DNA of 64,000 nt from Octopus vulgaris (taxonomy: Eukaryota). The position numbers and the translations under genes were made by a program. Below the pieces are notes generated by a model. It had not been told where the DNA came from and did not search any database. It saw only the letters and a list, made by a program, of their open reading frames with translations. This document shows, piece by piece, positions 1,425 through 2,078 of the stretch. The DNA lies in contig OX597821.1 of the NCBI GenBank assembly GCA_951406725.2, positions 5,456,001 to 5,520,000 of the forward strand, given 5' to 3'. The number at the start of each line of letters is the position of its first letter. Positions within the stretch are counted from its first letter, which is position 1.

Positions 1425-2078
1425 TATGTATATATATAAATAATATTAGGGTAATAAGAATTATAGAAATTATTATTACCAGTGGCCTAGCACAAAAAAT
1501 TATTAGGCAATATTCTATATATTATTCACATAAAAATATCATGTACATTAAAACACATTAAGAGACTTCCAAACACACAAAATAGCACAAGGCTTTCCTA
1601 TTTGGAATCCTCTTAATGTGTTTAAATGTACATGATATTTTTATGTATATATATATATATATATATATAAAATTTGTTTGGGGATTCACGGTCAAAAATT
1701 ACACTGATGAGTAGAATGATCCGGTGGTGTTGCTGGGTTGTGTATTTTTCATACCTCCTATGGTTACCGAGATAATCTACTATAATAATAATCTTGTGTT
1801 TATGAATGAGAAAGGAAGGAGTGATGTCATACTTGGTAGTGGGATGATGAAAATTGCACGCTGAAAATATACAAACTAAACTGCGTTTCAACTCTGTGTG
1901 AATATATGTGTGTGTATGTAAAGGGGGTATGTAAATGTATGTGTCCCTGTGCGAGCGGAATGGAAGTGAGATAGTTTGTCTTTGTTCGTTTAGTATCAGA
2001 ACGTAAAGAGGTACGAAATGCCATTAAACACTTTGTCCAGCGTTCCAAAGATTCTGCCAGCTTGCAGTCTTTAATATA

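What the first reader, a model, noticed from the sequence alone, without database searches (positions are those of the whole stretch)
1441..1492. Conserved terminal hairpin plus AGTGGCC(C/T)AGCA motif next to (TA)n junctions
Seen: unrelated inserts end about 5-15 nt from (TA)n with a hairpin closed by GGT...ACC and followed by AG(T/C)GGCC(C/T)AG. Examples: 1450-1492 (ggtaataagaatt/aattattattacc), 28215-28256, 55800-55848 (ggtggcaa/ttgccacc) and, on minus, ~41411-41456 and ~32707-32745. A second subtype (GGC...GCC-ACA..CT) is at 42843-42880 and 62346-62380. Stem sequences differ but pairing is kept. Where an HHR is present, the hairpin is at the 3' end of the HHR-sense strand. Inference: a cis signal for RT recognition or priming at TA targets.
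Basis: partly seen in the sequence, partly recalled or inferred. Interest (0 to 1): 0.75.

Follow-up and report, generated by a model that had tools for sequence, protein, structure and literature searches.

The report
Folded copy-start signal of retrozymes
Many families of small protein-free jumping repeats that carry a hammerhead (self-cutting RNA) motif share one predicted RNA fold, and their insertions into TA repeats end at two fixed points about 95 bases apart inside it, so the fold likely tells a borrowed Penelope-type copying enzyme where to start.

Summary
In detail: 2,739 exact motif copies in the genome against 1 for the control, and 70 of 92 sampled copies run into a microsatellite just past the hairpin. 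The hairpin and motif are the 3' part of a predicted RNA domain of about 170-200 nt, downstream of a type I hammerhead in 430-560-nt tandem repeats (non-LTR retrozymes). The 'motif' is mostly the 3' strand of two long-range helices that covary between families. The hairpin is terminal only in DNA: tandem units run on past it. Insertion ends are bimodal (112 of 118 at two sites about 95 nt apart), and 41 of 45 two-armed insertions use one site per arm, the Penelope 'tail' signature. Example 32707-32745 is instead the end of an autonomous Hydra-type Penelope element with a different tail. No autonomous element carrying the domain was found, and there is no RNA evidence. This scan noted the same domain before on other DNA of this genome (e1-9591169). 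Verdict: new variant of a known kind, a testable candidate for the retrozyme mobilisation signal.

The parts
1439..1575 (-). Family B retrozyme insert, long arm (5'-truncated, no hammerhead), ending at the outer site in (TA)n
   Evidence: left end, right end approximate
1450..1480 (-). Terminal hairpin d (GGU...ACC)
1481..1492 (-).
1583..1645 (+). Family B short arm: 5' strand of helix b, inner hairpin c (1591-1610), ending at the inner site in (TA)n
28201..28292 (-). Family A long arm: small UUCG hairpin e (28267-28276), motif (28245-28256), hairpin d (28215-28244)
28290..28319 (+). Family A short arm ending at the inner site
55787..56236 (-). Family E retrozyme (492-nt unit elsewhere), one nearly whole unit: helix a 5' strand 55953-55958, helix b 5' strand 55925-55932, motif 55837-55850, hairpin d 55800-55836
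56017..56107 (-). Type I hammerhead core of family E (CUGAAGA...GAAAC...GUA), found by pattern
40898..41465 (+). Family M insert: partial upstream copy (40898-40994), hammerhead core 41191-41235, helix b 5' strand 41327-41334, motif variant 41410-41422, hairpin d 41423-41454 closed by GAU/AUC
42830..42879 (-).
42871..42903 (+). Family S2a opposite arm, about 30 nt, ending at the outer site
62344..62800 (-). Family S2b unit (476 nt elsewhere): internal b'/a'/d copy 62680-62732, hammerhead core 62465-62500, helix b 5' strand plus hairpin c 62347-62376, ending at the inner site
32636..32776 (+). Long arm of a stump of an autonomous Hydra-type Penelope element (96% to L200); tail shares only CCACUGGU...ACC with the retrozyme domain
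32562..32639 (-). Short arm of the same Hydra-type stump, with hammerhead core 32598-32627

Best explanation
The hairpin and motif are the 3' half of a predicted, covarying RNA domain in hammerhead-bearing, protein-free tandem repeats (non-LTR retrozymes), and the domain likely positions a borrowed Penelope-type reverse transcriptase at two fixed internal start sites. Shown in sequence: each 430-560-nt unit has a hammerhead core, then the domain (helix a, side hairpin f, helix b enclosing hairpin c and a small hairpin e, then b'-a'-d on one continuous strand); insertions lie in microsatellites, mostly (TA)n, and end either just past hairpin d (outer site) or about 40 nt before the motif (inner site); two-armed insertions use one site per arm.
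For: Counts vs controls. Tandem units each with hammerhead core and motif: 492, 473, 457, 533, 429, 449, 560, 476, 537 nt; longest ATG frame 34-92 aa in 11 units. Covariation on 13 representatives: 90.8% of 304 cells paired, 10 of 25 pairs change on both sides, 0 of 500 shuffles reach this, slid controls 26-50%; helix b 41 of 44 variable cells vs 31.8 shuffled, helix d 49 of 55 vs 44.6, p=0.009. Strand: 33 G-U vs 5 A-C cells on the hammerhead strand; 55787-56010 folds at -65.9 (z -5.1) on that strand vs -44.5 (z -3.1). Ends: 74 at +37..+72, 38 at -46..-28, 6 elsewhere, of 118. Of 108 segments, 45 have two 3'-facing ends: 41 inner+outer, 1 outer+outer, 0 inner+inner, 3 other. Families M, S2a, S2b, N with no BLAST similarity to the others keep helix b (8/8, 8/8, 7/8, 8/8); M, S2a, S2b keep hairpin d (8/8 each) and the two-site spacing. 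A Hydra-type autonomous element in this genome also has two fixed ends, 71 nt apart, in (TA)n (50 ends). PMC11167929 shows in vitro that a Penelope-type RT starts at two internal RNA sites whose interval is the genomic tail.
Against: No autonomous element with this domain was found among the Neptune- and Hydra-type families examined, and 11 units vs 9 autonomous loci gave one 22-nt hit. No RNA data: transcription, cleavage and circles are untested here, and Rfam found no hammerhead at gathering score in 8 loci. The most conserved bases (GGU/ACC, CUAG) do not vary within the main group, and RNAalifold preferred a CC-RCU-GG triloop to helices a and d. Helix a rests on about one compensatory event (related families E, F), is broken in family D, and its register in M and S2b was set by hand after a first mis-register. 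Hairpin d is 5/8 in family N. Families are related, so the shuffles overstate significance. Ends scatter over about 20-35 nt, unlike the sharp Hydra ends. The published tail is 30-40 nt, not 95.
Confidence: 0.7

Rival explanations
1. The fold serves the RNA's own life (stability, ligation into circles, blocking or releasing the hammerhead); a Penelope-type RT simply starts at the two exposed U/A-rich single strands that can anneal to nicked (TA)n.
For: Both sites lie in U/A-rich linkers with 0-3 nt identity to (TA)n; ends scatter by 20-35 nt; PMC7229834 (Discussion) argues that circular retrozymes need some block on the ribozyme; no autonomous element with the domain was found.
Against: The units are AT-rich throughout, yet 112 of 118 ends fall at two sites and each arm uses a different one; spacing is kept in sequence-unrelated families; the Hydra-type element starts at fixed sites with 0-1 nt identity.
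Confidence: 0.15
2. The hairpin is the true 3' end of the RNA and works like the 3' stem-loop of a LINE/SINE pair.
For: Outer ends lie a median 10 nt past the hairpin; 46 of 108 segments are a single 5'-truncated arm ending there.
Against: Internal tandem units run on past the hairpin without a repeat; the predicted hammerhead cut is upstream of the domain; a second fixed end lies inside the domain.
Confidence: 0.07
3. The inverted arm arises by fold-back self-priming (as proposed for Penelope in PMC3846280) and the structure acts on DNA or on an antisense template.
For: Several junctions between arms are short palindromes (L001, L015, L030); PMC3846280 passages.
Against: G-U pairs and folding energy favour the hammerhead strand; in L212 the second arm (458 nt, running through the hammerhead region) holds sequence absent from the first (162 nt), so it is not a copy of it.
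Confidence: 0.06
4. The motif is only the inherited end of one repeat superfamily, with no selected function.
For: Families B, C, D, G, H, J, E, F are alignable.
Against: Two-sided changes in three helices and retention of the fold in families with no detectable similarity.
Confidence: 0.02

Closest known systems
Metazoan non-LTR retrozymes (PMC7229834; bioRxiv 10.64898/2026.07.22.740005)
   Same: Protein-free tandem repeats of several hundred bases, one type I hammerhead core per unit, dispersed as monomers to multimers, in a genome with Penelope-like elements.
   Different: The parts of these papers that I read describe no conserved structured domain, start sites or (TA)n targeting. The preprint finds pLTR similarity for 24 of 57 Xenopus families; here 11 units showed none to 9 autonomous loci. 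Self-cleavage and circles are untested here.
Penelope-like element insertion anatomy: pLTR, inverted 5'-truncated copy, optional tail (PMC8557442, PMC3846280); PAc internal initiation (PMC11167929)
   Same: Back-to-back arms, a tail on one arm only, two internal start sites downstream of a hammerhead, AT-rich targets.
   Different: Tail about 95 nt, not 30-40; a multi-helix domain, not one AC-rich stem-loop; no ORF; one architecture shared by many families.
Hydra clade of Penelope-like elements (PMC8557442)
   Same: Window example 32707-32745 is the end of a 3.35-kb element with a 727-aa ORF bearing RWK, DKT and CxCx5C, a hammerhead core and (TA)n insertion.
   Different: Its 71-nt tail does not have the a/b/c/d domain; it shares CCACUGGU...ACC only. 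It is a candidate partner, not a shown one.

Membership tests
Non-LTR retrozyme | Tandem repeat with a type I hammerhead in at least two consecutive units | tested here: met
   L031, L033, L034, L050, L208, L209; core found by pattern, stems read by eye; Rfam gathering gave 0 hits
Non-LTR retrozyme | No protein coding | tested here: met
   longest ATG frame 34-92 aa in 11 units
Non-LTR retrozyme | Transcription, self-cleavage, circular monomers | not tested
   no RNA data were obtained
Non-LTR retrozyme | Sequence kinship to a pLTR of an autonomous element (2026 preprint) | tested here: inconclusive
   one 22-nt hit in 11 units vs 9 autonomous loci; survey of autonomous families incomplete
Penelope-type insertion | Inverted 5'-truncated second arm | tested here: met
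   45 of 108 segments have two 3'-facing ends
Penelope-type insertion | Tail on one arm only, bounded by two fixed ends | tested here: met
   41 of 45 inner+outer; 112 of 118 ends at two sites; length about 95 nt vs 30-40 published
Penelope-type insertion | Target site duplication | not testable with these tools
   flanks are microsatellites; no empty alleles available
Autonomous Penelope-like element (main retrozyme families) | RT plus GIY-YIG ORF upstream of the hammerhead | tested here: not met
   tblastn with Neptune- and Hydra-type proteins hit only neighbouring or abutting elements
Hydra clade (example 32707-32745 only) | RWK and DKT motifs, CxCx5C linker, C-terminal endonuclease without CCHH, hammerhead, (TA)n target | tested here: met
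   read from the L200/L201 translations against PMC8557442 section 11; 20% identity to the Neptune-type protein over the C-terminal half; no Pfam hit
Hydra clade (example 32707-32745 only) | Placement in an RT phylogeny; length under 3 kb | not tested
   no tree built; unit is 3.35 kb, slightly above the general size given in the paper

The most novel reading that the evidence does not exclude
These retrozymes carry a sequence-independent RNA landing pad, kept by structure across families with no detectable similarity and absent from the autonomous elements' own ends, that holds two reverse-transcriptase active sites about 95 nt apart. They would then be structural parasites of Penelope-type enzymes rather than detached pLTRs, and the fold would be a portable two-site priming signal for TA-targeted insertion.
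Probability: 0.3. Interest if true: 0.75.

Novelty: new variant of a known kind. Interest (0 to 1): 0.52.

Why it matters
How animal retrozymes get copied back into DNA is open: PMC7229834 names Penelope-like elements as a strong candidate, and the 2026 preprint says the mechanism remains to be worked out. These insertions carry the Penelope footprint (two arms, a one-sided tail) and point to a defined RNA fold with two start sites that can be mutated and rescued in an existing in vitro assay format. Natural families with different sequences supply ready-made compensatory variants. The element class and the tail are known; the shared fold and its geometry were not in the papers I read.

Tried and rejected
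Search for an autonomous element ending in the motif: Neptune-type families (L066-L077, L090-L093, L078-L089; L110-L139, of which about 19 of 30 were visible), Hydra-type families (L200-L207, L216-L245, L286-L327): none; the motif copies in L234, L286 and L307 are separate inserts. A first reading that a second Hydra-type family ends in subtype 2 was withdrawn: that sequence is antisense inside its 3' UTR, a captured insert, and the real end lies about 2 kb further; the S2a end counts include repeated copies of this one capture. Pairing of the motif with hammerhead stem II, suggested by families D, H and J, is not general and was dropped. An anti-ribozyme pairing in the Hydra-type tail is absent from the second Hydra-type family. 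The shared GGUAAAUG downstream of the hammerhead has no consistent partner; the one seen in L016 comes from the inverted arm. Two abutting retrozyme/Penelope junctions (L090, L213) can be explained by insertion at the edge of an older copy and are not used as evidence. Rfam: the 150 listed matches in the window are microsatellite-driven miRNA hits, 217 lower ones not seen. In one search family F helix b was mis-anchored; one search replaces it.

Full report
Observation. The window is G000:C8:5456001-5520000 in a 2.8-Gb genome rich in (TA)n; that it is an octopus is recalled from its repeats and from earlier scan notes, not tested. The exact 15-mer occurs 1341+1398 times against 0+1 for the reversed control, the looser hairpin pattern 3793+3765 against 55+66. 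My sample is the exact hits that I fetched from the first 115 Mb of contig C1: 92 distinct hits in 87 loci. In 70 of 92 a strict microsatellite starts 30-80 nt beyond the motif on the hairpin side (57 pure TA), against 13% of control positions, and 7 of 92 have one within 90 nt on the other side. A hammerhead core lies upstream on the hairpin-last strand in 17 and on the other strand in 2; 73 show none there, most being short inserts.

What carries it. The motif sits in tandem units of 492, 473, 457, 533, 429 and 449 nt. Units read in full have a CUGANGA...GAAAC core about 190-280 nt upstream, and the longest ATG frame in 11 units is 34-92 aa. Rfam gave no hit at gathering score in 8 loci, so the ribozyme call rests on the core pattern and stems read by eye. 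This is the anatomy of non-LTR retrozymes (PMC7229834: passages and Discussion; bioRxiv 10.64898/2026.07.22.740005: parts 1-3 of 5, supplements closed). Internal units continue past the hairpin with ordinary unit sequence, so the hairpin is terminal only at the DNA junction.

The fold. On the hammerhead strand the motif reads UGCU(A/G)G-GCC(A/G)CU-GGU. On a MAFFT alignment of 13 representatives, chosen from the 17 clusters, the 25 named pairs are kept in 90.8% of 304 cells, 10 pairs change on both sides, no shuffle of 500 reaches this and slid controls give 26-50%. With strands anchored in 11 families, the variable cells of b pair in 41 of 44 (shuffled mean 31.8, 0 of 20,000), of d in 49 of 55 (44.6, p 0.009), of a in 11 of 11 (9.4, p 0.017). 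G-U cells outnumber A-C cells 33 to 5, and the window's family E copy folds at -65.9 kcal/mol (z -5.1) on this strand against -44.5 (z -3.1) on the other. Against: relatedness inflates the shuffles; helix a rests on about one event and is broken in family D; unguided RNAalifold recovered b, c and e but put a CC-RCU-GG triloop in place of a and d, partly because d was poorly aligned. Helices b and d are well supported, a is tentative.

Two fixed ends. Taking the C of CU(A/G)G as 0, 118 element ends that run into a microsatellite fall at +37..+72 (74), at -46..-28 (38) or elsewhere (6). Of 108 motif-bearing segments, 46 are one 5'-truncated arm ending at the outer site, and 45 have two outward-facing 3' ends: 41 inner plus outer, 1 outer plus outer, none inner plus inner, 3 other; 17 are other single arms, 10 of them a family without a reference. 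The window's 1439-1645 and 28201-28319 inserts are of the two-armed type. In L212 the inner-ended arm is 458 nt and runs through the hammerhead region, absent from the 162-nt outer arm, so it was templated independently. Identity between the RNA continuation and (TA)n at the sites is 0-3 nt. This matches the inverted copy and one-sided tail of Penelope-like elements (PMC8557442: passages and section 11; PMC3846280: passages) and the two internal start sites shown in vitro for PAc, whose interval is the tail and whose protein is predicted to be a dimer (PMC11167929: parts 1-2 of 4; supplementary figures not seen).

The other examples. Family M (41411-41456) has the same fold with d closed by GAU/AUC and ends at -37 and +51 (4 ends). 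The 'second subtype' belongs to 560-nt and 476-nt hammerhead repeats. There the GGC...GCC hairpin is c, preceded by the 5' strand of b, and it lies next to the inner site; b', a' and a true hairpin d follow, and the outer ends fall 50-62 nt past the equivalent of position 0. M, S2a, S2b and N show no BLAST similarity to the main families yet keep helix b at 8/8, 8/8, 7/8 and 8/8; d is 8/8 in M, S2a and S2b and 5/8 in N. Their a helices were registered by hand. S2b has only 7 mapped ends, and many of the 42 S2a ends repeat one captured insertion. Example 32707-32745 is 94-97% identical to the end of a 3.35-kb element with a 727-aa ORF showing the Hydra-clade motifs; it too has two fixed ends in (TA)n, 14 inner and 36 outer, 71 nt apart, but its tail lacks the domain.

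Partner. Several intact or decayed Neptune- and Hydra-type families are present. None that I examined ends in the domain, and 11 units against 9 autonomous loci gave a single 22-nt hit. Each genome search scored only its best 150 candidates, so a carrier may have been missed. Hydra-type enzymes are the likelier partner (TA targeting in PMC8557442, two-site ends here, a shared CCACUGGU at a similar distance from the outer end), but this is inference.

Mechanism and verdict. Shown: repeat anatomy, covariation, strand, two ends, one per arm. Inferred: transcription, cleavage, protein binding and twin priming; confidence 0.7. Seven literature searches and an octopus repeat annotation (PMC13282606, parts 1-2 of 3) returned no description of this domain; subscription papers, Repbase and unseen supplements may hold one. 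Earlier notes of this scan on other pieces of the genome describe the same structured tail and two start points; I tested those claims here and do not count the notes as support. New variant of a known kind; interest 0.52.

Noticed in passing
L090 minus strand (G000:C1:13169000-13178999): A whole family C retrozyme unit abuts, with no (TA)n between, the 5'-truncated end of a Neptune-type ORF; possible template switch, or insertion at the edge of an older copy. One case.
   Followed up: partly
L213:580-1660: Family A arm joined back to back to an old Hydra-type endonuclease fragment with its own hammerhead core, no (TA)n between.
   Followed up: partly
L203-L207, L194: A Hydra-type family carries a captured two-armed S2a retrozyme insertion, antisense, in the microsatellites of its 3' UTR and has spread it.
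   Followed up: partly
L200 and L205-L207 3' ends: Two Hydra-type families 36-40% identical in protein share a tail motif (UUACUCU...GUAUU(U)GAGUAC) between two fixed ends 66-71 nt apart.
   Followed up: no
L317:4146-7023, L323:2221-4152: A young 5.57-kb Hydra-type family has a long asparagine-rich stretch between RT and endonuclease, recalling the N-rich inserts of rotifer Penelope elements (PMC3846280).
   Followed up: no
L066-L077: Young Neptune-type family in 4.43-kb tandems with a 446-aa ORF overlapping the start of the 784-aa RT/GIY-YIG frame and a minimal hammerhead-like core about 90 nt from the 3' end.
   Followed up: partly
window 50298-51114 (-), 51896-52117 (+), 61884-62180 (-): Decayed Neptune-type RT/GIY-YIG fragments; not part of the hairpin-bearing inserts.
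   Followed up: partly
window 10079-10712, 19694-20060: Tandem copies (96- and 184-nt periods) of an abundant short repeat, recalled as a SINE.
   Followed up: no
L043:8165-8370, L118, L053, L032:81: Further hammerhead-bearing families with long stem II whose 3' regions were not compared with the domain.
   Followed up: no
window 28267-28276: In family A the small hairpin e is a C(UUCG)G tetraloop, while other families have a GUC-N4-GAC hairpin at the same place.
   Followed up: partly
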